Assembly: GCA_018303685.1 (NCBI GenBank)
Contig: JAGVXS010000039.1
Location: 1 to 14,964, forward strand
Reading direction: 5' to 3'
DNA from: Candidatus Woesearchaeota archaeon
Lineage (GTDB): Archaea; Nanobdellota; Nanobdellia; Woesearchaeales; GW2011-AR4
Length of the DNA stretch: 14,964 bases
The translations under genes and the position numbers were made by a program. How positions within the stretch are numbered: position 1 is the first letter of the stretch; each line of letters starts with the position of its first letter. Positions 1 to 12,715 of this stretch are shown in pieces. Below the pieces are notes generated by a model, which had not been told where the DNA came from, searched no databases, and was given only the letters and a program-made list of their open reading frames with translations.

Positions 1-1370
1 TTTGATGTAAGCAGTTTTTTCAGAAGTACAATCTGCTCAATCATGTCAGTCTTTTCGCTTATCTGTGCCATTGGCTTTACCTTCATCTCATCAAGCCTTT
101 TGATTGCGCAATCCCCATATGCAACAAGCCTTTCTTTGCCTTCAAGCATTTCCCCTGAAAGCACGGAGCCCATTACAAGATTAAGCTGTTCTCCCCTCAA
201 TCCAATAAGCCTTGATGTTGCATTGAACATTGCGTTCAGGCATGCAGGGCAGGCTTTTCCGTCAATAACCTTGATGTCAGGATGCGGGGTTTCTTCTGCA
301 ACCGGCTTTTTTATGGGGTATTTTAATGCATCAAGCTCGTTGCCGACAATTTCAATATCTTTTATCGCATTTTTGCCTAGCTTTATGTAAGGCGGGATTT
401 CAAGCATGGATGCTTTGCAGAAAACAGCATCAAGCATTGCTGGATTTCTGCCTGCATAAACAAGGTTAAGGAAAGCCGGCTCTCCAAGAGTTAATGGACC
501 CTGCCCCTGCATTCCGCTTGTTGCATCAGCTATTGTAATCACATTCAATGCATTAACAAGCTTTGGCAGTGTCTCATCTATATTGTCAAAGTACATCCTT
601 CTCTGGGTAGGCTCGTCGCAAAGCCTTGACAAGTTTTCCACTGCCCCTGACAATCCAATCTGGGAGTTTGTCTTCATTATAGGGGCATTGATGATTTTCC
701 TGTTCAATGTTTCCTTAAGAATCTTAAATTTGTATCCGTCGCTTTCAATCTCCTCAAAGGGGCCTTTTGAAATGTCAGCAAAGCTTATGTCATTCTTTTT
801 GCAAACTTCAAGTATGCCTGCCTTTGAAGCAGCATCCATTGAATCCGAGCCGATTAGCGCCTGCTCCGCTATCATAATGTTTTCTTTGCTAATCCCATGC
901 TCCAGCAGAGCCAAAATCAGCGCATTCAGAAAATCTGGATTTGTGTTTACAGCCTGATATGGATAAGCAGCAGCCACAATGCTCGGCTTGACTAAAATCT
1001 TGTCGTCTTTGCCCAAATCAATCCTGTTCAAAAGCCCAACAGCATCTTTAATCGCTTCATAAATATCATACTTTACTTTTACAACAGCAACAGCATCTTT
1101 GCCCTTTGCTCTTTGCTCGACATAATCATCTCCAATCTTGTAATCCTTCATAGTTTTTTTAGGCATCCTGTTGCCGTGCTCATCCTCAAGAAGCAGGACA
1201 TTATATGGTATGATTGGGTGCATGGGAGAGGGAATTGCAACCTTTGTAATGCCTGCAACCCTTATCTTGGCGCCTTTCTGCTTGATTACAGGTCCTTTGC
1301 AGTAAACACATTTTTCAATAGGGTAAATCCATTTCTTGCTGCATTTTTCACATATCCACCTTATTATCAT
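1..1370 (-). CDS. DUF35-type zinc-ribbon/OB-fold domain fused to a DUF362 domain protein (C-terminus cut by the window edge; missing from the supplied ORF track)
   Basis: Manual minus-strand translation from ATG 1370-1368 gives 456 uninterrupted codons down to position 3. I checked positions 3-420 codon by codon for in-frame stops and found none. N-terminus is MIIRWICEKCSKKWIYPIEKCVYCKGPVIKQKGAKIRVAGITKV...PYNVLLLEDEHG, i.e. a CxxC-x10-CxxC ribbon (1299-1352) plus an OB-like segment, as in thiolase-associated DUF35 proteins. From about aa 115 the DUF362 pattern appears: KILVKPSIV, IMKTNSQIGLSGAVENL, ITIADATSGMQGQGPLTLG, RNPAMLDAVFCKA. An extra C-terminal region contains GKACPAC and YGDC. The ATGA start/stop overlaps the thiolase stop. 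GGTGGGGG SD lies at 1372-1379. Confidence 0.8.
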   Translation of the reverse strand, partial: MIIRWICEKCSKKWIYPIEKCVYCKGPVIKQKGAKIRVAGITKVAIPSPMHPIIPYNVLLLEDEHGNRMPKKTMKDYKIGDDYVEQRAKGKDAVAVVKVKYDIYEAIKDAVGLLNRIDLGKDDKILVKPSIVAAAYPYQAVNTNPDFLNALILALLEHGISKENIMIAEQALIGSDSMDAASKAGILEVCKKNDISFADISKGPFEEIESDGYKFKILKETLNRKIINAPIMKTNSQIGLSGAVENLSRLCDEPTQRRMYFDNIDETLPKLVNALNVITIADATSGMQGQGPLTLGEPAFLNLVYAGRNPAMLDAVFCKASMLEIPPYIKLGKNAIKDIEIVGNELDALKYPIKKPVAEETPHPDIKVIDGKACPACLNAMFNATSRLIGLRGEQLNLVMGSVLSGEMLEGKERLVAYGDCAIKRLDEMKVKPMAQISEKTDMIEQIVLLKKLLTS

Positions 1371-2491
1371 GCCCCCACCTTCTTCAGGATATGCACAGTA
1401 ACTGTGCTTCCTGCCCCGCCTATATTATGTGCCAGCGCATAATTTACATTATCAACCTGCCTGTCGCCAGCCTGTTTTCGCATCTGCTTCGCAAGATCGT
1501 AAACCTGTGCAATTCCTGTTGCGCTTATCGGGTGGCCTTTTGCCTTCAGCCCGCCGCTTGTATTCACAGGCAGCTTTCCATTTAAGTTGACTGTGCCTTT
1601 CCTTATCATGTACTTGCCTTCTCCTTTTTTGCAAAACCCCAAATCCTCATAGGAAATAACCTCAACAGGAGTGAAGGCATCGTGCAATTCAGCAACATCG
1701 ATATCACTAGGAGACAAATTTGCCTGTTTGTAAGCTTCTTCCGCGGCAAGTTTGCTGGCTTGCCATGAAGTCATGTCCTCGTTTTCAAAAGCTGAAAGCC
1801 TGTCAACATATAGGCTTGAGCCTGCTATCTCAATATCTGTTTTTTCTTTTGTCAGAATAGCTGCGGCAGCGCCATTGACAGACAAGCTGCAGTCAAAAAG
1901 CCTTAATGGAGATGCAACAACAGGAGACTTCTTTATCTGCTTTAATGTAACCTGCCTTTTGTAAAACCTTGCCTTTGGATTCAGATAAGCGTTGCTGTGG
2001 TTTTTAAAAGCAACCAATGCAAAATCATCTGTTGTAGCGCCATACCTGAGCATGTACTGTTGCGCAACCAAGGCGTTCTGTGCAGGAAAAATCAGTCCAT
2101 CAGCCTGCTCATACAATCTTTCAGCTGCCATAAGGATTTCGTCTGTTGTATTTGCAGTGTTATTGGACAGCAGCCTTTCAGAGCCAACAACAAGCACATT
2201 CTCATAACCCATTTTATTTGCTGTCCAGATTGCTGAACCTCCTCCGCCGCAGACAGCAGATGATGTTAGTATGGGAACCTTCTTTTTGAACATGCTGCTT
2301 AAAATCGAGGAAAACCCCCTCTGCCTTTCACCACTGCTTTCATTGTCAACAGTTGATGAGACAATAGCATCTATATCTTCCATATTAAAATTAGCGTCTT
2401 CCAACGCCTCCATTGTAGCTTCATAGACAAGCTCCTGGCTTGTATCTGTCTGTGCCCCGAACTTTGTCATGCCAACTCCTTTTACGTACAT
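1367..2491 (-). CDS. Thiolase-superfamily acetyl-CoA C-acyltransferase, SCP-x / DUF35-associated archaeal type
   Basis: 374 aa. N-terminus YVKGVGMTKFG. Nucleophile Cys81 in SSAVCGGGGSA (codon 2249-2251). ELHDAF, KGHPISATG and C-terminal AHNIGGAGS are typical of SCP-x/archaeal thiolases that lack the second catalytic Cys. GAGGGG SD lies 9 nt upstream. Confidence 0.9.
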   Translation of the reverse strand: MYVKGVGMTKFGAQTDTSQELVYEATMEALEDANFNMEDIDAIVSSTVDNESSGERQRGFSSILSSMFKKKVPILTSSAVCGGGGSAIWTANKMGYENVLVVGSERLLSNNTANTTDEILMAAERLYEQADGLIFPAQNALVAQQYMLRYGATTDDFALVAFKNHSNAYLNPKARFYKRQVTLKQIKKSPVVASPLRLFDCSLSVNGAAAAILTKEKTDIEIAGSSLYVDRLSAFENEDMTSWQASKLAAEEAYKQANLSPSDIDVAELHDAFTPVEVISYEDLGFCKKGEGKYMIRKGTVNLNGKLPVNTSGGLKAKGHPISATGIAQVYDLAKQMRKQAGDRQVDNVNYALAHNIGGAGSTVTVHILKKVGA

Positions 2492-2504
2492 AGAATTTAC
2501 CCCT

Positions 2505-2996
2505 CTACCTCGCGAATTTTGACCTGAACTCTGCCCTGTTTACAATTGCCAGCATCAGCAAAGCCTCTGCCACCAAAGTGTCTTTTACAAACGCCTTGCC
2601 CTGAAGAATCGCCCCTCTTTCATCCTGGGCTATCAAATCCAGCTCGAACCTTGCAGTATCCCCAGGCAGTATAGGGGCCATGAATTTTACTTCTTTCATC
2701 TTGTAGGCAAGCACATCCTTCTCCTGATGGTTTGGGATATTGTTTCTCACAAGCAAAGTGCCTGCCTGCCCCATACCTTCAACAGTCAAAGCGCCTGGCA
2801 TTATTGGAAAGCCTACAAAATGGCCTTTAAGGAAATCCTCTTTGCCTGTGACATCCTTTTCAGCTACTATACTGCTACTCGTCAGGCTTATAACCCGGTC
2901 AATGAATAAAAAGTGCTCGTCATAGGGTATAATCTTCTTGATGTTATCTGCGTTTATTCCGCCATCCGCGTTTTTCAGCTCGTTAAACCGGCTCAT
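2505..2996 (-). CDS. fabZ: FabZ-like hotdog-fold 3-hydroxyacyl-thioester dehydratase
   Basis: 163 aa. FabZ core motif LKGHFVGFPIMPGALTVEGMGQAG, with His59 (2820-2822) and Glu73 (2778-2780) 14 residues apart as in bacterial FabZ. N-terminal IPYDEHFLFIDRV corresponds to LPHRYPFLLVDRV. Confidence 0.85.
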   Translation of the reverse strand: MSRFNELKNADGGINADNIKKIIPYDEHFLFIDRVISLTSSSIVAEKDVTGKEDFLKGHFVGFPIMPGALTVEGMGQAGTLLVRNNIPNHQEKDVLAYKMKEVKFMAPILPGDTARFELDLIAQDERGAILQGKAFVKDTLVAEALLMLAIVNRAEFRSKFAR

Positions 2997-3020
2997 TTTA
3001 GCTTGTTTCTAAACTTTGGT

Positions 3021-3034
3021 TTAATTTAAATAAC
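3021..3034 (-). promoter_or_regulatory. TATA-like box for the fabZ-thiolase-DUF35 operon
   Basis: Minus strand reads GTTATTTAAATTAA, centred about 31 nt upstream of the fabZ-like ATG (2996). Confidence 0.45.
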
Positions 3035-3060
3035 TTTCTACCATTATATTTTTTAATATA

Positions 3061-3081
3061 TATAATAAAATAGTTATTATA
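3061..3081. promoter_or_regulatory. Perfect 8-5-8 inverted repeat (candidate operator) between the divergent TATA boxes
   Basis: TATAATAA (3061-3068), AATAG, TTATTATA (3074-3081); the arms are exact reverse complements. The background is very A/T-rich, so a chance occurrence is plausible. Confidence 0.3.
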
Positions 3082-3112
3082 AAGTATATCCATTACTGGA
3101 AAACACAAAAAT

Positions 3113-3124
3113 CTTTATAAAAAG
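3113..3124 (+). promoter_or_regulatory. TATA-like box for accC-birA
   Basis: CTTTATAAAAAG, centred about 26 nt upstream of ATG 3144. This spacing fits a leaderless or very short-leader mRNA. Confidence 0.5.
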
Positions 3125-3143
3125 AGAAGCAAAAGCATGCTGT

Positions 3144-5063
3144 ATGCTTAAGGGAAAAAAATTAGTGAGCAAGTCAGCGAGCTTGAGGCGCAAATTAGTA
3201 TTGGACATCATCAACAGGGCTTTGAAGCCTTTGGAGAGTATGTATATAGCCTTGGCAGGCTCTGCTAAAAAAACCAAAGAGATGTTTCCTGCCTTATACA
3301 GGCACTTTGAAGAGCTGATTAAGCAGCATATAATCACGCCAGGTAAAAGCATTTTTAACTCATCAAAAATAGGCGGCATGGGCGGCTTTATAACAACCAA
3401 TGTCATGAAAAGGCTGCCGCATATCGACGAAGCCCAGATAGAAGAAATACTCGGCAACCCCTCAAATAAGTCATTTCTGGAAATACTTACGAGGGGATTC
3501 GGCATAAACAGAGATAAGGAGAAAACATATACCAAACTTGGCAACGGTAGCTTCAAGAGAATATTAATTGCAAACAGGGGAGAGATAGCACTGCGCATAA
3601 TAAGAGCGTGCCGCGAACTGGGCATAGAAAGCATCGCAATTTATTCTGATGAAGAAAAAGACAGCCTGGTTGTGAAGTTCGCAGACAAGTCCTACAACAT
3701 AGGCAAGCCGAAGAACTACCTCAACATCAAGAAAATAGTTGAGATAGCAAAGCAAAGCGAATGCGATGCAATCCATCCCGGTTACGGGTTCCTTTCAGAA
3801 AACCCCAAGTTTGCAAGGCTATGCGAGAAAAGGGGCATAAAATTCATAGGTCCGTCTTCAAGGATGATAGGGAAGCTTGGAAACAAAATAGAGGCGAAAA
3901 ATGCAATGCTCAAGGCAAACATCCCGGTAATAGAAGGAGTTAAAGAAGATCTAAAGAGCAAGAGGCATGCACTAAGGGCTGCAAGAAGGAGCGGATTTCC
4001 CGTCATACTAAAAGCATCTGCAGGAGGCGGAGGCAAAGGGATGAGGATTGTCGAAAGGGAAGAGGATGTTTTTAATGCCTACGAAAGCGCAGAGAAAGAG
4101 GCGTTAAACTCTTTTGGCAGCAGCTCGCTGTACATAGAAAAATACCTTGAAGAGCCAAAGCACATAGAGTTCCAGATTTTGGCTGACAGGCATGGAAATG
4201 TCATCCATCTTGGGGAGAGGGACTGCAGCATACAGAGAAGGCACCAGAAGCTGATAGAGGAGGCGCCAAGCCCTGCACTTGACAATGAGCTAAGGGAATT
4301 GATGGGCGCTGCTGCCGTGAATGCAATAACGGCTATAGGCTATGAAGGGGCAGGCACTGTGGAATTCTTGCTGGACAAGAACAGGAATTTCTATTTTATA
4401 GAGATGAACACAAGAATACAGGTTGAGCATGGCGTTACAGAAATGGTGACAAATGTAGATTTGATAAAGGAGCAGATAAAACTCGCCGAAGGAGCCAAGC
4501 TTGCTTACAATCAGGAAGACATAAAGGTAGAGGGGCATGCAATTGAATGCAGGATAAATGCAGAGGACCCAAGCAACAATTTTGCGCCTTCTCCGGGCAC
4601 TGTCGTCAACTACCTGCCTCCGGGAGGGCCCGGCATCAGGATAAGCAGCTCGTGCCATACGGGCTGCAGGATTCTGCCGCAATTTGACTCTTTAATCGCC
4701 TTGCTTATCTGCCACGGCAGGACAAGGCACGAGGCAATAGCCAGGATGAGAAGGGCTTTGGACGAGTTTATTATTGAGGGGGTAAAAACTACGACGCCGT
4801 TCCACAAGCTTGTGCTTAGCAAGAGGCAATTCCTGAAGGGAAATGTTGCAACATCTTTTATAGAAAACAATATGATAATGGAGGAGATGAAAGGATTAAA
4901 GCAGAAAAAAGAGGCTTTGCCGAAAGAGAAAAAAGTGCTTATAGTAACAACAGCAGTCGCGCAGTACCTTGTGAAAAAACAGGATGCACCAGGCAAAAAA
5001 ATAAATCCATGGGTGATGGCAGCGAGGCAGGAAGCGCTGAATGAGGGAAGCCTTGAAGAATAG
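3144..5063 (+). CDS. accC: Biotin carboxylase (ATP-grasp) subunit of an acyl-CoA carboxylase, with a ~136-aa N-terminal extension and a ~63-aa C-terminal tail
   Basis: 639 aa. From aa 137: FKRILIANRGEIALRIIRACRELGI, HPGYGFLSEN, glycine-rich lid KASAGGGGKGMRIV, EMNTRIQVEHGVTE, IECRINAEDP. TATA-like box 3113-3124 lies about 26 nt upstream of ATG 3144. The nearest internal in-frame ATG (3405) would still leave about 50 extra residues. Confidence 0.93.
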   Translation: MLKGKKLVSKSASLRRKLVLDIINRALKPLESMYIALAGSAKKTKEMFPALYRHFEELIKQHIITPGKSIFNSSKIGGMGGFITTNVMKRLPHIDEAQIEEILGNPSNKSFLEILTRGFGINRDKEKTYTKLGNGSFKRILIANRGEIALRIIRACRELGIESIAIYSDEEKDSLVVKFADKSYNIGKPKNYLNIKKIVEIAKQSECDAIHPGYGFLSENPKFARLCEKRGIKFIGPSSRMIGKLGNKIEAKNAMLKANIPVIEGVKEDLKSKRHALRAARRSGFPVILKASAGGGGKGMRIVEREEDVFNAYESAEKEALNSFGSSSLYIEKYLEEPKHIEFQILADRHGNVIHLGERDCSIQRRHQKLIEEAPSPALDNELRELMGAAAVNAITAIGYEGAGTVEFLLDKNRNFYFIEMNTRIQVEHGVTEMVTNVDLIKEQIKLAEGAKLAYNQEDIKVEGHAIECRINAEDPSNNFAPSPGTVVNYLPPGGPGIRISSSCHTGCRILPQFDSLIALLICHGRTRHEAIARMRRALDEFIIEGVKTTTPFHKLVLSKRQFLKGNVATSFIENNMIMEEMKGLKQKKEALPKEKKVLIVTTAVAQYLVKKQDAPGKKINPWVMAARQEALNEGSLEE

Positions 5064-5811
5064 TTTTTACAGTTCTTTGGATAATAGCTATATGAAGTGC
5101 AAAATTTACCGCTTCAAATCATTGAAGTCCACTCAAGACAAAGCCAAGGAATTTTCCAAGAAAGGACTAAAAAATATTGTTATTGTCGCTGATGCGCAGA
5201 TAAAAGGGAGAGGGCGCTTCAAAAGAAAATGGCACTCTGCCAAAGGAGGCTTGTGGATGTCAATCTTACTTTCGCCAAAAAAAGCGGAAAATCTGCAATA
5301 CCTGACATTTGCCGCGGCAATAGCAGTTGTCAAGTCCATTAAAAAAATGACAGGCATCAGCACAAAAATAAAATGGCCCAATGACGTCCATTACAACGGC
5401 AGGAAATTGTGCGGCATTCTTACAGAAGGGATTTTTCCAGCTAATTATGCTGTTATAGGGATTGGTGTTAATGTCAACCAAAGCAAATTTCCCAATGAAA
5501 TAAAAAACACCGCTATATCACTCAAAATGATTAAAAACCAAACAATATACATTAAAAAACTGATTAGAAATATACTTTATGAATTTTTCAACTTATATAA
5601 TAATTATTACAATAAAAATAAATTTGAAAAAATATCAAAAATCTGGAAAATGCATTGTGATACAATAAACAGGGACGTAACCGCAATCACAAGAGCTGGC
5701 AGATTAAGCGGGAAGGCAATAGGCATCGATGAAGAAGGCAGCCTGCTGCTGAAAACAGGCAAAAGCAATGTAGTTAAAGTTGCAGAGGGAGACATAAGCA
5801 TCAGGTACTAA
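5041..5811 (+). CDS. birA: Biotin--[acetyl-CoA-carboxylase] ligase, class I (no N-terminal DNA-binding domain)
   Basis: Biotin-binding loop KGRGRFKRKWHSAKGGLWMSILLSP (GRGR codons 5206-5217). KWPNDV motif. C-terminal SH3-like end VAEGDISIRY. Start is uncertain: ATG 5041 overlaps accC by 23 nt and has AGGAAG upstream; ATG 5092 is the alternative (239 aa). Confidence 0.88.
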   Translation: MREALKNSFYSSLDNSYMKCKIYRFKSLKSTQDKAKEFSKKGLKNIVIVADAQIKGRGRFKRKWHSAKGGLWMSILLSPKKAENLQYLTFAAAIAVVKSIKKMTGISTKIKWPNDVHYNGRKLCGILTEGIFPANYAVIGIGVNVNQSKFPNEIKNTAISLKMIKNQTIYIKKLIRNILYEFFNLYNNYYNKNKFEKISKIWKMHCDTINRDVTAITRAGRLSGKAIGIDEEGSLLLKTGKSNVVKVAEGDISIRY

Positions 5812-5815
5812 TCAC

Positions 5816-5829
5816 AATATTTAAAAAAG
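5816..5829 (+). promoter_or_regulatory. TATA-like box for the small membrane protein-bioY unit
   Basis: AATATTTAAAAAAG lies about 29 nt upstream of ATG 5851, directly after the birA stop. Confidence 0.45.
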
Positions 5830-5850
5830 ACACTGGCAAACTTCAGCAGA

Positions 5851-6081
5851 ATGGCGATTTTGAAGAGCATACCAATATTAAAAAAGCTTGTGGACATGGC
5901 ATACGCAATATTGGTAGTGATTGTCTTAAGCGCCTTGGTCGGACTGATTCTGGCGTTTCCTGTCAAACTGCTCTGGAACTATGTGTTCGGGAGCTATCTC
6001 ACAATCAACTGGTTTCAGGCATGGGCCCTGAATGTCCTGACAGGAATACTTTTAAGCAAAACCGGAAACGGAAAAAGGTGA
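5851..6081 (+). CDS. Small hypothetical membrane protein (76 aa, two predicted TM helices)
   Basis: Hydrophobic segments AYAILVVIVLSALVGLILAF and WFQAWALNVLTGILL. TATA-like box 5816-5829 lies about 29 nt upstream of the ATG. Its stop is 4 nt before the bioY ATG, and the bioY SD (GGTGA) lies inside its last codons. Confidence 0.55.
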   Translation: MAILKSIPILKKLVDMAYAILVVIVLSALVGLILAFPVKLLWNYVFGSYLTINWFQAWALNVLTGILLSKTGNGKR

Positions 6082-6085
6082 TGAT

Positions 6086-6739
6086 ATGATAACTGCAAAC
6101 AAAAACAAGACTTTGTACGAGATTCTGTTTCATCAAAGTACAATAATGCTTGATGTTTTTATGATACTTGCAAGCGTTGTTTTTATGGCGGCAATGGCAA
6201 ACATTACAATACCAGCCTCATACATAGCGGCTATGGAGAAGATGTTCCATATACCGCTTTGGCCGGTGCCCATCACAATGCAGACTTTTGGTGTTTTTAT
6301 TGTTACATTCTTCTTCGGCTCAAGAAAAGGATTGATTGCGATGGCTGCATATGCCCTTGCCGGGCTCCTCGGCTTTGGGGTTTTTGCAGGCCACAAGTCG
6401 GGAGTTGATGTATTTTTGAAAGCCAGCGAAGGATTCAAGCTTGCCCCGTCAGGCGGATATATAATAGGATTTTTGCTTATGGCGTTCCTTGTGGGGATTA
6501 TGATAGAGAAAGGCTACGGGAGAACAGGAAAAAGCATATTGCTGTGCATGCTTGTTGGTGAGATTGTGTTATATACAATCGGCCTTCCTTGGCTTTGGAT
6601 AGCGCTCGGAAAGATATCATGGCTTCAGGTCCTCAAATTCGGCTTGGTTCCTTTCATCATAGGAGACACACTGAAGGCACTGCTCGCAGCTGCATTGTTC
6701 CCTTATATGTGGAAAGGGGCAGAGAAGATAGGCAAGTAA
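6086..6739 (+). CDS. bioY: Biotin transporter BioY (ECF-type S component, here without visible A/T components)
   Basis: 217 aa, multi-TM. PVPITMQTFGVFIVTFFFGSRKG, AGLLGFGVFAG and GGYIIGFLLMAFLVG match the BioY family pattern. It sits in the biotin ligase / carboxylase context. Confidence 0.85.
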   Translation: MITANKNKTLYEILFHQSTIMLDVFMILASVVFMAAMANITIPASYIAAMEKMFHIPLWPVPITMQTFGVFIVTFFFGSRKGLIAMAAYALAGLLGFGVFAGHKSGVDVFLKASEGFKLAPSGGYIIGFLLMAFLVGIMIEKGYGRTGKSILLCMLVGEIVLYTIGLPWLWIALGKISWLQVLKFGLVPFIIGDTLKALLAAALFPYMWKGAEKIGK

Positions 6740-6746
6740 GCATTGC

Positions 6747-7136
6747 TCATTCTATTATTGCAAGCACATCGCCCCTGTTCACATTGTCATTTTTCTTTAC
6801 CTTAACATCTTTTAATACACCATCCTTAGGCGCGGTTACCTCATTCTCCATTTTCATAGCCATCAGTATAAACAGGCTCTGCCCCTGCTTTACCCTTGCG
6901 CCTTCTTTGGCTTTTATTTCGTAAATAATCCCGGGAAGAGGCGCTGTTATTTCAGTAGCCCCCTCACTTATCTTCTGCCTTTTTTGCAGCCTGTCAATTG
7001 CGGATGTTTCAGCATCTTTTTTTGTCTCAACTTCGTAAACATCAGAGCCGCAGTGCACAAGTATTTTGCCCTCTTCTGTTTCCTCTACAAAAACCTTGTA
7101 TTCCCTGCCGTCAACCTTAACAACAAGCTCTTCCAT
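6747..7136 (-). CDS. accB: Biotin carboxyl carrier protein (short, 1.3S-like type)
   Basis: 129 aa. Biotinyl domain APLPGIIYEIKAKEGARVKQGQSLFILMAMKMENEVTAPKDGVLKDVKV. Biotinyl-Lys95 codon AAA lies at 6852-6854. N-terminal VKVDGREYKVFVEE resembles short transcarboxylase-type carriers. The ATG is 2 nt after the carboxyltransferase stop. Confidence 0.9.
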   Translation of the reverse strand: MEELVVKVDGREYKVFVEETEEGKILVHCGSDVYEVETKKDAETSAIDRLQKRQKISEGATEITAPLPGIIYEIKAKEGARVKQGQSLFILMAMKMENEVTAPKDGVLKDVKVKKNDNVNRGDVLAIIE

Positions 7137-7138
7137 GT

Positions 7139-8656
7139 TTACAATGGCATGTTTCCGTGTTTTTTTGCCGGCTTTTTTTCTCTTTTAGAAAGCAGCATTT
7201 CAAGGCACTTGACCATGGCAATCCTTGTGTTTTTTGGCTCAATTATCATATCAATTTTTCCGAGGCTTGCTGCACTATAGGGGTTAAGGTATTTTTCCGA
7301 GTACTGCCTTGATAGCTCAGATTTCAGCTTCGGGTTTTTGCTTAGCTCATCCTTGTTTATTATACTGACTGCCTGCTCAGCGCCCATGACTGCAATCTCG
7401 GCCATTGGCCACGCTATAACCTTGTCAAAGCCCATCCCCTTTGAGACAAGTGCGATGTAAGCCCCCCCATACGCTTTTCTAAGCACAAGCGATATTTTTG
7501 GCACAGTCGCCTCGGAATAGGCGTAAAGCACCTTTGCGCCGTGCCTTATTATGCCATTATGCTCCTGCTCTGTGCCGGGCAAATAACCAGTGACATCAAC
7601 AAGATTTATGAGCGGTATGTTGAAGCAGTCGCAAAATCTCACAAATCTTGAAATCTTGTCAGAGGAGTTAATGTCAAGGCAGCCCGCCAGCACCTTCGGC
7701 TGGTTGGCTACAACTCCAACAACATAGCCGTTAAGCCTTGCAAACCCGATAACCGCATTTTGCGCGTAATTCGCCCCAACCTCAAAAAAGGATTTTTTGT
7801 CAAAAATCTCTATGATGACATCTTTTATATCATAAGTCTTTTTTGGGTCTTCCGGAACAATGCCCTGAAGCCTTTTTGTTTCTCTTGCCGGAATGTCTGT
7901 GGAATGATAAGGGGGGCTCTCAAGATTATTCTGGGGGAGATAGCTCAGCAAAATCTTTATCATGTCCAAGCATTGCTTTTCATTTTCTGCCATGAAATGC
8001 GCTACGCCGCTTTTCTCATTTTGGACTGATGCGCCCCCCAGCCCCTCAAAGTCAATTGCCTCGCCAGTGACTGTTTTTATTACATCAGGACCTGTAATGA
8101 ACATGTAGCTTGTTTTATTCACCATAAAAACAAAGTCAGTCAAAGCAGGGCTGTAAACGGCAATACCTGCGCAAGGGCCAAGTATTGCAGATATCTGCGG
8201 TACAATGCCTGAAGACAAAGTGTTAAGCTGAAATATCCTGCCGCCGCCTTCCAGGGCGGAAATTCCTTCCTGTATCCTTGCCCCTCCTGAGTCAAACAAG
8301 CCGATGCACGGGCATCCTGTTTTCAATGCCAGCTCCATCACATGGGCTATTTTTTCGTTGTGAGTATTGCCCATCGAGCCGCCCATAAAGGAGAAGTCCT
8401 GTGCGTAGACATAAACAGGCTTTTTGCTTATTGTGCCATAGCCGGCTACAACACCATCACCATACCTTCTTTTTGCCTCAAGCTCCTTGCTTTGCAGCTC
8501 TGCAAAAGCATCAAGCTCTGCAAAAGAGCCTGTATCAAGAAGGTGCTTAAGGCGCTCTCTTGCAGTAAGCTTGCCTTTTTTGTGCTGCACTTCGGCAGCG
8601 TGCTTGTCATCAAGCGCTTTGCTCCTTTCAAGAAACTCCCTAACCTTCTCCCCCAT
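7139..8656 (-). CDS. pccB: Acyl-CoA carboxylase carboxyltransferase subunit (PccB/AccD5/MmdA family)
   Basis: 505 aa. KGKLTARERLKHLLDTGSFAELDAF, FDSGGARIQEG and a second-half AYGGAYIAL. This is the two-crotonase-fold CT length. TATA-like TTTTTAAA (minus strand; 8679-8686) lies about 26 nt upstream of the ATG. Confidence 0.93.
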   Translation of the reverse strand: MGEKVREFLERSKALDDKHAAEVQHKKGKLTARERLKHLLDTGSFAELDAFAELQSKELEAKRRYGDGVVAGYGTISKKPVYVYAQDFSFMGGSMGNTHNEKIAHVMELALKTGCPCIGLFDSGGARIQEGISALEGGGRIFQLNTLSSGIVPQISAILGPCAGIAVYSPALTDFVFMVNKTSYMFITGPDVIKTVTGEAIDFEGLGGASVQNEKSGVAHFMAENEKQCLDMIKILLSYLPQNNLESPPYHSTDIPARETKRLQGIVPEDPKKTYDIKDVIIEIFDKKSFFEVGANYAQNAVIGFARLNGYVVGVVANQPKVLAGCLDINSSDKISRFVRFCDCFNIPLINLVDVTGYLPGTEQEHNGIIRHGAKVLYAYSEATVPKISLVLRKAYGGAYIALVSKGMGFDKVIAWPMAEIAVMGAEQAVSIINKDELSKNPKLKSELSRQYSEKYLNPYSAASLGKIDMIIEPKNTRIAMVKCLEMLLSKREKKPAKKHGNMPL

Positions 8657-8720: not shown

Positions 8721-9452
8721 CTAAAAAAGCTTGAATCCCCTGCTTTCAGCTGCGGCTATTATGCCGCTGTCAACAATCTTAAACAAAACTTCCTTCTCAC
8801 CGCCAATGCTCCTGTGCTTCCTCAGGATGGCCCTCCTGTTGTTGTTTGGGGTGGTTTGCAGTTCTATGAGGCACTTGCTGCCGTATTTGAGAATGTCGCC
8901 GCCGACAATGTTAACCTTGTCCCTGTCGTCAAAGTCCGTATAAACCTGGTTTGTGATGAGCACCGGAATCTGCTTTTTCCTTGCTATCTCAGTAAGCCAG
9001 GAAATCTGCTTTCCGAGCTCAAGGTTTACTTCATGGATATCATCGTTTTTGCCCAGCTCAAGGCGGTAAAGCATTGCTATGGTGTCAACGACTATCAGCC
9101 CAATCCTGTCATTGACTATGTCCCTGAGCTTCTCAAAAGACTTCTTTTGCTCCGAAAAGCTTGTCGGCCTCAAAAATATTATGTTGTCAAGTATTTTTTT
9201 GTAGTCTTGGCTTATGCTTGAGCATATCTGCCTGAATCTCTCGAGAGAAAAGCCGCCCTCGCTGTCAACATAAACAACTTTTTTCCCGTTTCTGGCCACA
9301 TCAACCGAGCAGAGCAGGCAAAGAATTGTCTTGCCCGAGCCGGCAGGCCCGTAGATTGTAGTTATAACATCTTTTTCATAGCCGCCATCAAGCATTGTGT
9401 CAAGCAGCTTGCTGCCTGTTGATATATTATTGTTCAATTCCACATCTTCCAT
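8721..9452 (-). CDS. radB: DNA repair and recombination protein RadB (RecA/RadA paralog)
   Basis: 243 aa. ISTGSKLLDTMLDGGYEKDVITTIYGPAGSGKT (Walker A), VVYVDSEGGFSLERF, and Walker B LIVVDTI. It is colinear by eye with Pyrococcus-type RadB and has no N-terminal HhH domain. Confidence 0.85.
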   Translation of the reverse strand: MEDVELNNNISTGSKLLDTMLDGGYEKDVITTIYGPAGSGKTILCLLCSVDVARNGKKVVYVDSEGGFSLERFRQICSSISQDYKKILDNIIFLRPTSFSEQKKSFEKLRDIVNDRIGLIVVDTIAMLYRLELGKNDDIHEVNLELGKQISWLTEIARKKQIPVLITNQVYTDFDDRDKVNIVGGDILKYGSKCLIELQTTPNNNRRAILRKHRSIGGEKEVLFKIVDSGIIAAAESRGFKLF

Positions 9453-11315: not shown

Positions 11316-11321
11316 GCCAAA

Positions 11322-12671: not shown

Positions 12672-12683
12672 TTCTTTAGAAAG

Positions 12684-12694
12684 TATTATTTATT
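12684..12694 (+). promoter_or_regulatory. TATA-like box for the GT-C glycosyltransferase gene
   Basis: TATTATTTATT is centred about 27 nt upstream of ATG 12716. Confidence 0.4.
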
Positions 12695-12702
12695 CTTGCG
12701 TA

Positions 12703-12709
12703 TTTTTTT
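12703..12709 (+). terminator. Oligo-T tract after the GT2-GT2 pair
   Basis: A T7 run starts 32 nt after the stop at 12671. It overlaps the next gene's promoter region, so its role is ambiguous. Confidence 0.3.
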
Positions 12710-12715
12710 AATAAA

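What the first reader, a model, noticed from the sequence alone, without database searches (positions are those of the whole stretch)
1..8656. Back-to-back acyl-CoA carboxylase, biotin supply and thiolase/dehydratase genes: a possible ACP-independent acyl-chain module in an archaeon
Within 8.7 kb the sequence encodes all three acyl-CoA carboxylase functions: BC at 3144-5063, CT at 7139-8656 and BCCP at 6747-7136. It also encodes the ligase that activates BCCP, a biotin importer, a thiolase with its DUF35 partner, and a FabZ-type dehydratase. The accC and fabZ-led units share one 147-bp divergent promoter region. No ACP, KAS or phosphopantetheinyl transferase is present in the window. Established knowledge: an ACP-independent, CoA-based fatty-acid route using thiolase-superfamily and hotdog enzymes has been proposed for archaea but is poorly supported experimentally. 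Clustering carboxylase, condensing enzyme and dehydratase together is the kind of genomic evidence that proposal lacks. The two reductase steps are not in the window.
Basis: inference. Interest (0 to 1): 0.8.

Follow-up and report, generated by a model that had tools for sequence, protein, structure and literature searches.

The report
ACP-free fatty-acid gene cluster, DPANN archaeon
A tiny groundwater archaeon (Woesearchaeota), from a group thought unable to make membrane lipids, carries a strongly conserved gene neighbourhood that looks like a carrier-protein-free fatty-acid factory wired to an acetyl-CoA carboxylase and to bacterial-type lipid-assembly genes.

Summary
The window encodes BC, BCCP and a PccB-type CT, a BirA-type ligase, BioY, an archaeal-type thiolase and a FabZ-type dehydratase. 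fabZ and accC diverge from a 147-bp spacer.

One correction: the "DUF35 partner" has no sequence-level DUF35 match. It is a DUF35-like fold fused to DUF362, a LarA-like domain of unknown function, and it runs off the window start.

The organism is a Woesearchaeote (DPANN). Contigs 100% identical to the window continue the fabZ operon with a FabG-type reductase, a second thiolase, a CoA-transferase and a methyltransferase-SDR. GpsA and two PlsC-type acyltransferases lie about 5 kb further.

Across 48 species-level genomes the core fabZ-thiolase-fusion-thiolase-SDR is nearly invariant, and BC lies upstream in 30/36. Distant relatives place acyl-CoA dehydrogenase/EtfAB, or FabK, plus PlsC-PlsC-GpsA in the same gene string. 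No ACP or KAS was seen near any locus.

Best reading (about 0.55): a CoA-based fatty-acyl synthesis module coupled to malonyl-CoA supply and glycerol-3-phosphate acylation. It is a new variant of the Sulfolobus thiolase/DUF35 synthase.

Unresolved: genome-wide absence of ACP, the enoyl reductase of this lineage, and whether malonyl-CoA is the extender.

The parts
3..1370 (-). DUF35-like (Zn ribbon + OB fold) :: DUF362 (LarA-like fold) fusion protein. It is truncated by the window edge: 456 of 481 aa are present.
   Evidence: Pfam DUF362, 88 bits, residues 125-319. There is no Pfam DUF35 hit. AlphaFold model pLDDT 82. Foldseek places the N-domain with BbsA 7pxp, ChsH2-DUF35 6ok1 and the 6esq DUF35, and the remainder with malate/lactate racemases 7s91, 6d6z and 9eia. 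The protein is 64-74% identical across more than 100 Woesearchaeota proteins. Its ATG overlaps the thiolase stop.
1367..2491 (-). Archaeal/SCP2-type thiolase (Thl1), the putative condensing enzyme.
   Evidence: Thiolase_C_1, 165 bits, and Thiolase_N. Best PDB matches are 7yvy and the 6esq thiolase. Cys81 and His320 are present; the HDxF motif reads HDAF. A thiolase lies upstream of the fusion in 36/39 genomes.
2505..2996 (-). FabZ-type (hotdog) 3-hydroxyacyl dehydratase, first gene of the operon.
   Evidence: Pfam FabA, 76 bits. NCBIfam FabZ 104 bits against a 113 cutoff. Catalytic His59 and Glu73 align with those of solved FabZ structures. It is 72-79% identical across Woesearchaeota and lies upstream of the fusion in 36/37 genomes.
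2997..3143 (.). 147-bp divergent intergenic region between fabZ and accC.
   Evidence: Read directly from the sequence. A ~140-155-bp spacer is conserved in at least 10 species.
3025..3040 (-). Conserved BRE/TATA-like box (TAGAAAGTTATTTAAA on the minus strand), 29-44 nt upstream of the fabZ ATG.
   Evidence: At least 80% conserved in an 11-species alignment of the spacer. It occurs once in the window. Promoter function is inferred.
3110..3124 (+). Conserved TATA-like box (CTTTATAAAAAG), 20-34 nt upstream of the accC ATG.
   Evidence: The TT.TATAAA.ATT block is conserved in the 11-species alignment. It occurs once in the window. Promoter function is inferred.
3144..5063 (+). Biotin carboxylase (AccC), with a lineage-specific 136-aa N-terminal extension.
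   Evidence: Biotin_carb_N, CPSase_L_D2 and Biotin_carb_C at residues 137-574. TIGR00514 accC scores 642 against a 626 cutoff. The extension is conserved in L007 and L009 and in 26/36 genomes. BC lies upstream of fabZ in 30/36 genomes.
5092..5811 (+). Biotin-protein ligase (BirA type, no repressor domain). An alternative upstream ATG lies at 5041.
   Evidence: BPL_LplA_LipB plus BPL_C. TIGR00121 scores 186 against an 83 cutoff. GRGR motif. Gene calls of 239-242 aa in relatives.
5851..6081 (+). Conserved 76-aa hydrophobic (probable two-helix membrane) protein between birA and bioY. It is not an ACP.
   Evidence: Sequence. No Pfam hit. A 74-76-aa gene is called at the same place in L001, L007, L009 and L012.
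6086..6739 (+). BioY biotin transporter (S component).
   Evidence: Pfam BioY, 117 bits. It is present in 9/32 relatives. Others have a 4HBT thioesterase or bioB/F/U/D genes at this position.
6747..7136 (-). Biotin carboxyl carrier protein.
   Evidence: Biotin_lipoyl, 70 bits. AMKM motif with Lys95. Present in 23/32 relatives.
7139..8656 (-). Carboxyltransferase, PccB/AccB type (12S family).
   Evidence: Carboxyl_trans, 593 bits. Best PDB matches are 1vrg and S. coelicolor PccB. Ile401 aligns with PccB position 422, which is the residue that differs among the D422 mutant entries. Present in 20/31 relatives.

Best explanation
The window is the left-centre part of a conserved Woesearchaeota (DPANN archaea) neighbourhood. 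It most likely encodes fatty-acyl chain synthesis on CoA thioesters, without an acyl carrier protein.

Operon 1, on the minus strand and continuing beyond the window start, encodes:
- a FabZ-type dehydratase;
- thiolase 1;
- a DUF35-like::DUF362 fusion;
- a FabG-type ketoreductase;
- thiolase 2;
- in this lineage, a CaiB-type CoA-transferase and a methyltransferase-SDR.

By analogy with solved thiolase/DUF35 complexes and the Sulfolobus fatty-acid-synthase complex, the Zn-ribbon/OB domain would dock the fusion protein onto the thiolase(s). This would build a condensing/reducing/dehydrating assembly (inferred).

Operon 2 is transcribed divergently from a conserved ~150-bp spacer with two TATA-like boxes. 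It encodes biotin carboxylase, biotin ligase, a small membrane protein and BioY. A convergent pair encodes CT and BCCP. Together they make and biotinylate a three-subunit acyl-CoA carboxylase. Its specificity residue (Ile401) is the acetyl-CoA-accepting type, so it most likely supplies malonyl-CoA (inferred). The conserved linkage suggests that malonyl-CoA drives the otherwise unfavourable thiolase condensation by decarboxylation (speculative).

About 5 kb beyond the operon lie GpsA and two PlsC-family acyltransferases with intact HX4D/EGxR motifs. These would esterify the acyl-CoA products onto glycerol-3-phosphate to give bacterial-type phosphatidic acid (inferred).

The enoyl-reduction step is not assigned in this lineage. 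Distant relatives use acyl-CoA dehydrogenase/EtfAB or FabK encoded in the same string. Here the full-length LarA-like DUF362 domain is the leading candidate (speculative).

Shown: gene identities, fold assignments, catalytic motifs and conserved synteny. Inferred: direction, substrates, complex formation and end-product.
For: Organism and extension
- Homologues are named Woesearchaeota/Nanoarchaeota, and the window carries RadB and an MBF1-like gene.
- The window is 100% identical to six metagenome contigs. L001 extends it by 8.6 kb to the left. The extension holds SDR (TIGR01830 FabG, 309 against a 298 cutoff), thiolase 2, CoA-transferase III, MT-SDR, then GpsA (410 against 257) and 2x PF01553 acyltransferase.
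- The genes are tightly packed or overlapping.

Conservation across 48 species-representative genomes
- FabZ 36/37; upstream thiolase 36/39; downstream thiolase 33/34; SDR 26/27.
- BC 30/36; BirA 27/34; BCCP 23/32; CT 20/31.
- PlsC 14/18; GpsA 13/18.

Rearranged contexts keep the same partners
- L052, L055 and L059 read FabZ-Thl-fusion-Thl-SDR-ACAD-EtfB-EtfA-PlsC-PlsC, all on one strand. GpsA follows directly in L055 and L059; L052 ends inside the second PlsC gene.
- L058 has the same string without ACAD/Etf.
- L061 reads Thl-fusion-SDR-CMAS-FabZ::FabK-FabK-PlsC-PlsC-BC-BCCP-BirA.
- L052 and L011 embed a 2-oxoacid:ferredoxin oxidoreductase in the cluster.

Catalytic residues and folds
- Catalytic residues are intact in FabZ, both thiolases, both SDRs (Yx3K), PlsC1/2 and BCCP.
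- CT has Ile401 at the PccB-D422 position.
- The fusion's N-domain matches DUF35 scaffolds by fold.

Absence of ACP and the ER pattern
- There is no ACP-like hit even at E≤10 in ~700 kb around the 48 loci.
- There are no ACP, KAS or PPTase domains in the window.
- A clustered ER is present in 0/22 loci with the long fusion and in 4/5 loci with the short fusion.

Precedent
- The Sulfolobus KT/DUF35/SDR/hotdog-dehydratase complex synthesises fatty acids without ACP.
Against: - No experiment or expression data exist for these uncultured organisms.
- ACP, AcpS, KAS and an enoyl reductase could be encoded elsewhere. Genome-wide absence was not testable here. The ACP test used tblastn with E. coli ACP over ±10 kb only, which is weak.
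- The best family matches of FabZ and FabG are the ACP-dependent bacterial enzymes.
- Thiolases of this type are known only as non-decarboxylative. The Sulfolobus study found no malonyl-CoA use with Saci_1114, the one thiolase it tested. The proposed role of the carboxylase is therefore unprecedented.
- The enzyme set plus ACAD/Etf could also run as beta-oxidation or as fermentative chain elongation.
- Synteny among the closer relatives (64-74% identity) partly reflects shared ancestry. Independent rearrangement events number only about three or four.
- Coleman et al. 2019 judged archaeal GpsA/PlsC homologues unlikely to act in membrane synthesis.
- Sequence-level DUF35 membership of the fusion is not met.
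Confidence: 0.55

Rival explanations
1. Catabolic or fermentative use. The thiolases, SDR, hotdog hydratase and (in relatives) ACAD/EtfAB run as beta-oxidation of scavenged fatty acids, or as reverse-beta-oxidation fermentation (butyrate/caproate type) for redox balance. The carboxylase then acts as propionyl-CoA carboxylase for odd-chain products. The CoA-transferase and 4HBT thioesterase release free acids.
For: - ACAD plus EtfAB, with a ferredoxin domain on EtfA in L052, and OFOR lie inside the cluster in distant relatives.
- A CaiB-type CoA-transferase occurs in 9/27 relatives and a YbgC-type thioesterase in 14/32.
- Zhang et al. 2024 report fermentative capabilities in most of their Woesearchaeota genomes.
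- CT family names in PDB and NCBIfam are mostly 'propionyl-CoA carboxylase/MmdA'.
Against: - An ATP-consuming carboxylase with its own biotin ligase and supply is conserved next to the operon in 30/36 genomes. Fermentation has no use for it.
- No methylmalonyl-CoA mutase or epimerase and no acyl-CoA synthetase is in view.
- PlsC-PlsC-GpsA sit in the same string in L055, L058 and L059, and PlsC-PlsC in L052, whose locus ends there.
- The reductase and dehydratase are of the FabG/FabZ (R-specific, anabolic) types. They are not Hbd/crotonase.
- CT carries Ile, not Asp, at the specificity position.
- A cyclopropane-fatty-acid-synthase homologue lies in the L061 cluster.
Confidence: 0.12
2. Dedicated synthesis of the biotin precursor. 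The cluster is a mini-FAS that builds pimeloyl-CoA. This would work in BioC/BioH style (methylated malonyl thioester elongated twice, one thiolase per round) or in BioZ style (glutaryl-CoA from a CaiB-like CoA-transferase). That would explain its linkage to biotin genes.
For: - In L012 and L022 the BioY position is occupied by bioF, bioU and bioD next to birA-accC-fabZ. L012 also shows bioB, an LCM-like methyltransferase and an MBL hydrolase there.
- The cluster methyltransferase has BioC as its best, but very weak, NCBIfam hit (22-26 bits).
- The CoA-transferase resembles succinate-glutarate CoA-transferase (192 bits, below cutoff).
- There are two thiolases.
Against: - Only 1/31 species representatives (plus L012) have bio genes nearby.
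- The window genome carries the importer BioY instead.
- The methyltransferase is present in only 16/27 relatives and the CoA-transferase in 9/27, whereas the core is near-universal.
- The logic is circular: biotin would be made only for a carboxylase whose product is used only to make biotin.
- The PlsC/GpsA linkage is left unexplained.
- A general FAS can also serve pimelate synthesis, as in E. coli, so this may be a secondary use rather than a rival.
Confidence: 0.1
3. Ordinary bacterial-type FAS II acquired by gene transfer. FabZ and FabG act on acyl-ACP. ACP, AcpS, FabD, KAS and FabI are encoded elsewhere. The neighbouring thiolases and DUF362 fusion serve another pathway.
For: - FabG passes the TIGR01830 cutoff, and FabZ homologues are named FabZ by NCBI.
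- Zhang et al. 2024 list FabG/FabI/FabZ in DPANN genomes.
- ACP genes are small and easily missed.
Against: - fabZ and the SDR are embedded in, and translationally packed with, the thiolase/fusion genes in 36/37 and 26/27 genomes.
- No KAS, FabD or ACP lies within ±10 kb of 48 loci.
- Relatives place a CoA-specific ACAD/Etf in the string.
- The reported 'FabI' may stem from the Pfam name of adh_short_C2, 'Enoyl-(ACP) reductase', which both SDRs hit.
Confidence: 0.1
4. A specialised, polyketide-like or methyl-branched lipid pathway. Thiolase, C-methyltransferase-KR fusion and dehydratase, without an enoyl reductase, would make branched or unsaturated chains rather than ordinary fatty acids.
For: - The MT-SDR fusion mirrors the cMT-KR order of PKS modules, and it gives a Methyltransf_12 hit.
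- FabZ also hits ApeI-like and PKS_DH_N.
- No ER is clustered in this lineage.
- The weak PDB hits of the MT are C-methyltransferases.
Against: - The MT is absent from 11/27 relatives.
- The cluster sits among housekeeping genes and is near-universal in the lineage.
- The PDB hits are not significant (E 0.06-0.09).
- Relatives do carry enoyl reductases.
Confidence: 0.05

Closest known systems
Sulfolobus acidocaldarius ACP-independent fatty acid synthase complex: KT Saci_1121 / DUF35 Saci_1120 / SDR ACR Saci_1104 / MaoC-HCD Saci_1085, plus MDR enoyl-CoA reductase Saci_1115 (Schmerling et al. 2024, bioRxiv 10.1101/2024.07.05.601840)
   Same: - An archaeal-type thiolase is paired with an adjacent DUF35-fold protein.
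- It has a FabG-like SDR ketoreductase and a hotdog-fold dehydratase.
- It works on CoA thioesters with no ACP.
   Different: - The dehydratase here is FabZ-type, not MaoC.
- The DUF35-like domain is unrecognisable by sequence and is fused to DUF362.
- Two thiolase paralogues flank the fusion gene.
- No MDR reductase is in view.
- All genes lie in one operon next to a carboxylase, whereas that study judged malonyl-CoA use unlikely.
- The cluster is linked to GpsA/PlsC.
Archaeal acetoacetyl-CoA thiolase/HMG-CoA synthase/DUF35 complex (PDB 6esq), and the bacterial PhlABC and MucABC acyltransferase complexes
   Same: - The thiolase is homologous (200 bits to the 6esq thiolase).
- The fusion's N-domain matches the DUF35 subunits by fold.
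- The general theme is a DUF35 scaffold joining two thiolase-superfamily proteins.
   Different: - There is no HMG-CoA synthase in the window operon. A separate KASIII-like/thiolase/DUF35/MaoC/SDR cluster exists in some relatives.
- The second partner here is another thiolase.
- The HDxF motif is HDAF rather than HDCF.
Bacterial type II fatty acid synthesis (FabG, FabZ, FabK; AccABCD)
   Same: - Ketoreductase and dehydratase families are the same.
- FabK is fused to FabZ in the L061 relative.
- Malonyl-CoA is supplied by a biotin carboxylase system.
   Different: - No ACP, AcpS, FabD or KAS is seen.
- The condensing enzymes are thiolases.
- The carboxyltransferase is the single-chain PccB/AccB type, not AccA/AccD.
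Clostridial reverse beta-oxidation (Thl-Hbd-Crt-Bcd/EtfAB)
   Same: CoA-bound elongation by thiolase. Distant relatives encode ACAD/EtfAB as the likely enoyl-CoA reductase.
   Different: - R-specific FabG/FabZ-type enzymes replace Hbd/crotonase.
- A carboxylase and glycerolipid acyltransferases are linked to the cluster.
- The window lineage has no ACAD/Etf nearby.
LarA (lactate racemase) superfamily / DUF2088. It shares Pfam clan CL0471 with DUF362.
   Same: The DUF362 part of the fusion has a LarA-like fold: Foldseek E 8e-7 to 1e-4 against malate and lactate racemases.
   Different: - TM-scores are only ~0.35-0.43.
- A profile search of the PDB finds no sequence similarity.
- LarA catalytic and nickel-pincer-binding residues were not assessable.
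- No larB/C/E genes are in view.
- The function of DUF362 is unknown.

Membership tests
Archaeal ACP-independent FAS complex (Sulfolobus type) | Archaeal/SCP2-type ketothiolase | tested here: met
   Thiolase_C_1, 165 bits. Best PDB matches are archaeal-type thiolases. Cys81 and His320 are present.
Archaeal ACP-independent FAS complex (Sulfolobus type) | Adjacent DUF35 (Zn ribbon + OB fold) partner protein | tested here: inconclusive
   Fold-level match to DUF35 proteins (Foldseek E 2e-4 to 1e-3, TM-target 0.40-0.49), and a CxxC-x10-CxxC motif. However, there is no Pfam DUF35 hit and hhalign against a bona fide DUF35 is not significant. The domain is fused to DUF362.
Archaeal ACP-independent FAS complex (Sulfolobus type) | SDR 3-ketoacyl-CoA reductase | tested here: met
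   It lies outside the window at L001:8686-9420, directly downstream of the fusion. TIGR01830 scores 309 against a 298 cutoff. Present in 26/27 relatives.
Archaeal ACP-independent FAS complex (Sulfolobus type) | MaoC-type hydroxyacyl-CoA dehydratase | tested here: not met
   The dehydratase is FabA/FabZ-type. The MaoC hit is only E 0.0075, below cutoff. A MaoC gene occurs only in a separate cluster, in 2/18 relatives.
Archaeal ACP-independent FAS complex (Sulfolobus type) | MDR-superfamily NADPH enoyl-CoA reductase | tested here: not met
   None of the gene families listed in the window or in the called genes of its L001 extension is an MDR. Relatives instead carry ACAD/EtfAB or FabK. The rest of the genome was not testable.
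Archaeal ACP-independent FAS complex (Sulfolobus type) | Physical complex formation and acyl-CoA elongation activity | not testable with these tools
   This requires protein biochemistry.
Bacterial type II FAS | Acyl carrier protein and phosphopantetheinyl transferase | tested here: inconclusive
   None is present in the window. There is no E. coli-ACP-like tblastn hit at E≤10 within ±10 kb of 48 loci. Whole genomes could not be scanned.
Bacterial type II FAS | KAS I/II/III condensing enzymes and FabD | tested here: inconclusive
   None appears among the called genes of the window, L001, L007 or L012. A KASIII/HMGCS-like gene occurs in a side cluster of a few relatives. The check is not genome-wide.
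Bacterial type II FAS | FabZ equivalog score | tested here: not met
   NF000582 scores 104.3 against a 113 cutoff. TIGR01750 scores 100.6 against 155. The catalytic His and Glu are nonetheless conserved.
Three-subunit acyl-CoA carboxylase (BC + BCCP + PccB/AccB-type CT) | Biotin carboxylase with ATP-grasp core | tested here: met
   TIGR00514 scores 642 against a 626.5 cutoff.
Three-subunit acyl-CoA carboxylase (BC + BCCP + PccB/AccB-type CT) | BCCP with the biotinyl-lysine motif (A/E)MKM | tested here: met
   AMKM at residues 93-96, Lys95. Biotin_lipoyl, 70 bits.
Three-subunit acyl-CoA carboxylase (BC + BCCP + PccB/AccB-type CT) | Carboxyl_trans (12S) subunit, with no membrane beta subunit of a decarboxylase | tested here: met
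   PF01039, 593 bits. No large membrane subunit lies in the window. BC and BirA are present, which argues for a carboxylase rather than a Na+-pumping decarboxylase.
Three-subunit acyl-CoA carboxylase (BC + BCCP + PccB/AccB-type CT) | Acetyl-CoA (rather than propionyl-CoA only) specificity | tested here: inconclusive
   Ile401 aligns with PccB residue 422. That position is Asp in the propionyl-specific wild type and Ile/Val/Leu/Ala in the engineered entries. That Ile marks acetyl-CoA-accepting enzymes is recalled from Diacovich et al. 2004, not tested here. An enzyme assay is needed.
LarA superfamily (for the DUF362 domain) | LarA-like two-domain fold | tested here: met
   Foldseek gives 7s91 at E 7.7e-7, 6d6z at 2e-5 and 9eia at 5e-5, with TM about 0.35-0.43. 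The two families share Pfam clan CL0471.
LarA superfamily (for the DUF362 domain) | Nickel-pincer cofactor ligands and catalytic histidines; larB/C/E accessory genes | not tested
   No residue-level structural alignment was available. A profile search of the PDB found nothing. No lar genes are in view.

The most novel reading that the evidence does not exclude
Woesearchaeota are DPANN archaea assumed to scavenge their lipids. In this reading they make bacterial-type fatty-acyl glycerol-3-phosphate ester lipids de novo, using a carrier-protein-free synthase with three unusual features:
- Archaeal thiolases perform malonyl-CoA-driven (decarboxylative) condensation.
- A LarA-like DUF362 domain, tethered to the thiolase by a cryptic DUF35 domain, supplies the missing enoyl-reduction step or another new catalytic step.
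- Related cassettes have moved between DPANN archaea and CPR bacteria.
Probability: 0.15. Interest if true: 0.92.

Novelty: new variant of a known kind. Interest (0 to 1): 0.76.

Why it matters
The 'lipid divide' separates archaeal isoprenoid ethers on G1P from bacterial fatty-acid esters on G3P. It is a long-standing puzzle for early cell evolution and eukaryogenesis. DPANN archaea, Woesearchaeota included, are generally described as lacking lipid biosynthesis and depending on hosts.

Scattered FabG/FabZ and GpsA/PlsC homologues in these genomes have been noted before, but they were dismissed or left unexplained.

The synteny shown here gathers most of a route from acetyl-CoA to phosphatidic acid into one conserved neighbourhood. 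It covers carboxylase with its biotin supply, condensing enzymes, ketoreductase and dehydratase. In relatives it adds a CoA-specific enoyl reductase. It ends with G3P dehydrogenase and two acyltransferases. No ACP was seen within 10 kb of any of the 48 loci.

This turns a vague proposal into a defined set of about ten genes that can be expressed and assayed. It gives a first functional context for DUF362. It raises the testable idea of malonyl-CoA-dependent thiolase condensation. It also predicts ester-linked fatty-acid lipids in a widespread uncultured archaeal lineage.

Tried and rejected
- Pfam scan of the fusion's N-terminal 114 aa at E≤10 gave no DUF35 family, only a spurious RING hit.
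- hhalign of the fusion alignment against a genuine Woesearchaeal DUF35 was not significant.
- A profile search of PDB sequences with the fusion alignment gave no hits.
- The N-terminal extension of BC stayed unexplained. It has no Pfam hit. A homologue search returned only five short fragments. The AlphaFold model had pLDDT 49 and is unusable.
- The methyltransferase domain gave only non-significant PDB hits and a weak BioC hit.
- The 76-aa ORF between birA and bioY was checked as a possible ACP. It is a hydrophobic membrane protein with no PP-binding motif.
- I considered a Na+-pumping methylmalonyl-CoA/oxaloacetate decarboxylase for CT+BCCP. I rejected it because BC and BirA are present and no membrane beta subunit is.
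- I considered a mevalonate-pathway role for the thiolase/DUF35 pair. I rejected it for this operon because there is no HMG-CoA synthase and the operon holds FabZ and FabG instead.
- I considered the second SDR as a FabI/FabL-type enoyl reductase. I rejected it because both copies carry the Yx3K ketoreductase spacing.
- Ten literature searches found no paper describing this cluster.

Full report
**1. What is in the window**

| Gene | Coordinates | Strand | Key evidence |
|---|---|---|---|
| Biotin carboxylase (BC) | 3144-5063 | + | accC TIGR00514, 642 against a 626 cutoff |
| BirA-type ligase | most likely 5092-5811 | + | TIGR00121, 186 against an 83 cutoff |
| 76-aa hydrophobic protein | 5851-6081 | + | no Pfam hit |
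| BioY | 6086-6739 | + | Pfam BioY |
| BCCP | 6747-7136 | - | AMKM motif, Lys95 |
| Carboxyltransferase (CT) | 7139-8656 | - | PF01039, 593 bits; PccB/AccB type |
| Thiolase | 1367-2491 | - | archaeal type |
| FabZ-type hotdog dehydratase | 2505-2996 | - | Pfam FabA, 76 bits |

- The fabZ-accC spacer is 147 bp.
- The rest of the window holds RadB, a DUF4190 protein, two GT2 glycosyltransferases, an Alg9/PMT-like glycosyltransferase, an MBF1-like HTH protein and a UPF0047 protein.
- No ACP, KAS or phosphopantetheinyl-transferase domain is present.

Two details differ from the finding.

*The 'DUF35 partner'.*
- It occupies 3-1370 on the minus strand, and its start codon overlaps the thiolase stop.
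- It runs off the window; the full protein is 481 aa.
- It is not recognisable as DUF35 by sequence.
- Residues 125-319 are DUF362.
- An AlphaFold model built on 32 homologues has pLDDT 82.
- Foldseek shows that the first ~100 residues form a CxxC...CxxC zinc ribbon and an OB fold. These resemble the DUF35 subunits of benzoylsuccinyl-CoA thiolase (7pxp), Ltp2-ChsH2 (6ok1) and the archaeal thiolase/HMG-CoA synthase complex (6esq).
- The remainder resembles LarA-type malate and lactate racemases (7s91, 6d6z, 9eia).
- DUF362 and the LarA N-domain share Pfam clan CL0471, and DUF362 has no known function (PMC11770544).

*The BC extension.*
- BC carries a 136-aa N-terminal extension that is conserved at protein level in relatives.
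- It has no family match, and its structure model was unusable.

**2. Organism and what lies beyond the window**

- Homologues of the fusion and of FabZ come almost exclusively from Candidatus Woesearchaeota, Pacearchaeota and Nanoarchaeota, at 64-79% identity. With RadB and MBF1 in the window, the organism is a DPANN archaeon.
- The thiolase occurs with identical sequence on many groundwater metagenome contigs.
- Six fetched contigs are 100% identical to the window over their overlap.
- L001 extends 8.6 kb past the window start. After the fusion it carries, tightly packed on the same strand:
  - a 244-aa SDR that passes the FabG model (309 against 298);
  - a second thiolase;
  - a CaiB-type family III CoA-transferase;
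  - a methyltransferase-SDR fusion.
- After three housekeeping genes come, on the opposite strand:
  - a GpsA-type NAD(P)H glycerol-3-phosphate dehydrogenase (410 against 257);
  - two PF01553 acyltransferases with intact HX4D and (P)EGxR motifs.

So one of the 'two missing reductases' lies immediately outside the window.

**3. Conservation**

Called genes around homologues at 73%, 71% and 64% identity (L007, L009, L012) show the same neighbourhood.

A scan of one genome per GTDB species with the fusion alignment returned 48 loci, nearly all Woesearchaeota or Nanoarchaeota. tblastn with the window and L001 proteins gave the counts below. Only loci with enough flanking sequence were counted.

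| Component | Present |
|---|---|
| FabZ upstream | 36/37 |
| Thiolase upstream | 36/39 |
| Second thiolase downstream | 33/34 |
| SDR | 26/27 |
| BC | 30/36 |
| BirA | 27/34 |
| BCCP | 23/32 |
| CT | 20/31 |
| PlsC | 14/18 |
| GpsA | 13/18 |
| Methyltransferase | 16/27 |
| CoA-transferase | 9/27 |
| BioY | 9/32 |

The ~150-bp divergent fabZ/accC spacer is kept in at least ten species. It holds two conserved TATA/BRE-like boxes, at window 3025-3040 and 3110-3124.

The most telling evidence comes from lineages where the order has been reshuffled but the partners stay together.
- In the 42-46%-identity clade (L052, L055, L059) the string on one strand is FabZ-thiolase-fusion-thiolase-SDR-acyl-CoA dehydrogenase-EtfB-EtfA-PlsC-PlsC. 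GpsA follows directly in L055 and L059. L052 ends inside the second PlsC gene.
- L058 has the same string without ACAD/Etf.
- L052 and L011 also embed a 2-oxoacid:ferredoxin oxidoreductase in the cluster.
- L061 is labelled Saccharibacteria and carries an S1-domain protein. It reads thiolase-fusion-SDR-cyclopropane-fatty-acid-synthase homologue-FabZ::FabK fusion-FabK-PlsC-PlsC-BC-BCCP-BirA.

**4.

- *Is clustering conserved?* Yes.
- *Is the carboxylase propionyl-specific?*
  - In the alignment to S. coelicolor PccB, the residue that differs among the D422 mutant entries (I/V/L/A) follows GGAY.
  - The window CT has Ile401 at that position.
  - Ile at this position is the state of acetyl-CoA-accepting enzymes. 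This rests on Diacovich et al. 2004, recalled from memory and not tested here.
  - No mutase or epimerase lies nearby.
- *Is there a standard FAS II?* This was not testable genome-wide.
  - tblastn with E. coli ACP found nothing, even at E≤10, in ~700 kb around the 48 loci.
  - No KAS or FabD appears among the called genes.
  - The acyl-CoA dehydrogenase/Etf in relatives is a CoA-specific enzyme.

**5. Mechanism proposed**

The mechanism builds on two analogies. Solved thiolase/DUF35 assemblies show the docking mode. The Sulfolobus complex joins ketothiolase, SDR reductase and hotdog dehydratase through a DUF35 protein and synthesises fatty acids on CoA.

- The fusion's N-domain would dock onto Thl1/Thl2.
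- The SDR (Yx3K, FabG-like) and FabZ (His59 and Glu73 intact) would process the 3-ketoacyl-CoA.
- The divergently transcribed carboxylase unit, with its own ligase and biotin supply, would provide malonyl-CoA.
- Its near-constant linkage suggests that malonyl-CoA is the extender. That would be new for this thiolase class. Both thiolases carry HDAF where the 6esq thiolase has HDCF, but 7yvy also has HDAF, so this is only a hint.
- Acyl-CoA would then be used by the two PlsC-family enzymes, with GpsA-derived G3P, to give phosphatidic acid.

The enoyl reductase of the window lineage is unassigned.
- Clustered ACAD/Etf or FabK occurs in 4/5 loci with a C-terminally truncated (~358 aa) fusion.
- It occurs in 0/22 loci with the full-length fusion.
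- L011, which has the long form plus ACAD/EtfB, is an exception.
- Together with the LarA-like (hydride-transfer) fold and the conserved Cys374, Cys377 and Cys421, this makes DUF362 a candidate reductase.
- The short-form loci amount to only about two independent lineages, so this remains speculation.

**6. Rivals**

- *Catabolic or fermentative use (0.12).* ACAD/Etf, OFOR, the CoA-transferase and the thioesterase fit this reading. The conserved ATP-consuming carboxylase, the FabG/FabZ enzyme types and the PlsC/GpsA linkage do not.
- *Dedicated pimeloyl-CoA synthesis (0.10).* The bioF/bioU/bioD genes that replace BioY in L012 and L022 suggest it; L012 also has bioB. So does a very weak BioC hit. 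Against it, bio genes are near only 1/31 representatives, the window genome has an importer, and the logic is circular. Pimelate synthesis may be a side use of the same machinery.
- *Ordinary FAS II with ACP elsewhere (0.10).* This cannot be excluded. It does not explain why fabZ and fabG are locked into a thiolase/fusion operon.
- *A specialised branched or polyene lipid pathway (0.05).* This rests on the MT-KR fusion, which many relatives lack.

**7. Relation to what is known**

The closest system is the Sulfolobus ACP-independent synthase. This cluster differs in five ways:
- the dehydratase is FabZ-type, not MaoC;
- the scaffold is a cryptic DUF35 fused to DUF362;
- there are paired thiolases;
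- there is a different, or missing, enoyl reductase;
- it is coupled to a carboxylase and to glycerolipid genes.

Earlier papers noted FabG/'FabI'/FabZ in DPANN genomes (Zhang et al. 2024) and GpsA/PlsC in Woesearchaeota (Coleman et al. 2019). They did not connect them, and the latter doubted a membrane role. Woesearchaeota are usually said to lack lipid synthesis. No searchable paper describes this cluster.

I therefore rate it a new variant of a known kind. Interest is high because it makes a lipid-divide question directly testable with a defined gene set.

**8. Limits**

- All evidence is comparative and structural prediction.
- Direction, substrates, complex formation and products are inferred.
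- Much of the synteny comes from related genomes.
- The taxonomic label of L061 and the L001 repeat structure depend on metagenome assemblies.

Noticed in passing
window 3144-3551: The biotin carboxylase has a 136-aa N-terminal extension that is conserved at protein level in 26/36 related species. It has no Pfam match and no usable structure model (pLDDT 49). It may be a docking or regulatory domain specific to this lineage.
   Followed up: partly
window 5851-6081: A 76-aa hydrophobic, probably two-helix, protein is encoded between birA and bioY. A gene of 74-76 aa is called at the same position in L001, L007, L009 and L012, even where BioY itself is replaced. Its function is unknown, and it is not an ACP.
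   Followed up: partly
L001:8695-9221 and L001:12676-13202: The stand-alone SDR and the SDR domain of the methyltransferase-SDR fusion share 527 bp at 100% identity. The same paralogues in other species are only ~75-80% identical at DNA level. This points to recent gene conversion or an assembly chimera.
   Followed up: partly
L005:1-3671: L005 is identical to the window for 2859 bp. Downstream, fabZ-thl1-fusion is followed directly by a single SDR and then TRAM, so thiolase 2, the CoA-transferase and the methyltransferase are missing. It is either a natural deletion variant or an assembly collapse.
   Followed up: partly
L012:1-4851 (also L022): In a marine (TARA) Woesearchaeote the BioY position holds a biotin biosynthesis set. 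The set is bioB, an LCM-like methyltransferase, an MBL-fold hydrolase, bioF, bioU and bioD. It lies next to birA-accC-fabZ. The methyltransferase/hydrolase pair could be a BioC/BioH analogue that relies on the neighbouring elongation enzymes.
   Followed up: partly
L009:15759-19406 (also L022, L031, L047, L049, L057): Some relatives have a second cluster downstream. It reads KASIII/HMG-CoA-synthase-like, thiolase-like protein, bona fide DUF35 (OB_ChsH2_C), MaoC dehydratase and SDR. The thiolase-like protein has Asp in place of the nucleophilic Cys and lacks the HDxF motif. This arrangement is closer to the Sulfolobus/HMGCS-type complexes.
   Followed up: partly
L061:8092-19961: A contig labelled Candidatus Saccharibacteria (CPR), with an S1-domain protein nearby, carries a reshuffled version of the cluster. 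It includes a FabZ::FabK fusion, a second FabK-like gene, a cyclopropane-fatty-acid-synthase homologue, two PlsC genes and BC-BCCP-BirA. This hints at exchange between CPR bacteria and DPANN archaea, or at mis-binning.
   Followed up: partly
L007:8929-10004: In assembly GCA_016187465.1 the first thiolase gene is split into two called ORFs of 174 and 135 aa. This is a frameshift or a sequencing error. It explains why that locus counts as 'missing' in the synteny tally.
   Followed up: no
window 8721-9452 and L005:7844-8845: RadB sits immediately upstream of CT-BCCP, and RadA sits just beyond the PlsC genes. The lipid-related neighbourhood is therefore bracketed by the two recombinase paralogues. 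This is conserved in L007 and L012.
   Followed up: no
window 10071-14107: Two GT2 (chitin-synthase-like) glycosyltransferases and an Alg9/PMT-like membrane glycosyltransferase follow on the plus strand. The two GT2 genes are conserved in L007. They may act in surface glycan synthesis or lipid-linked glycosylation.
   Followed up: no
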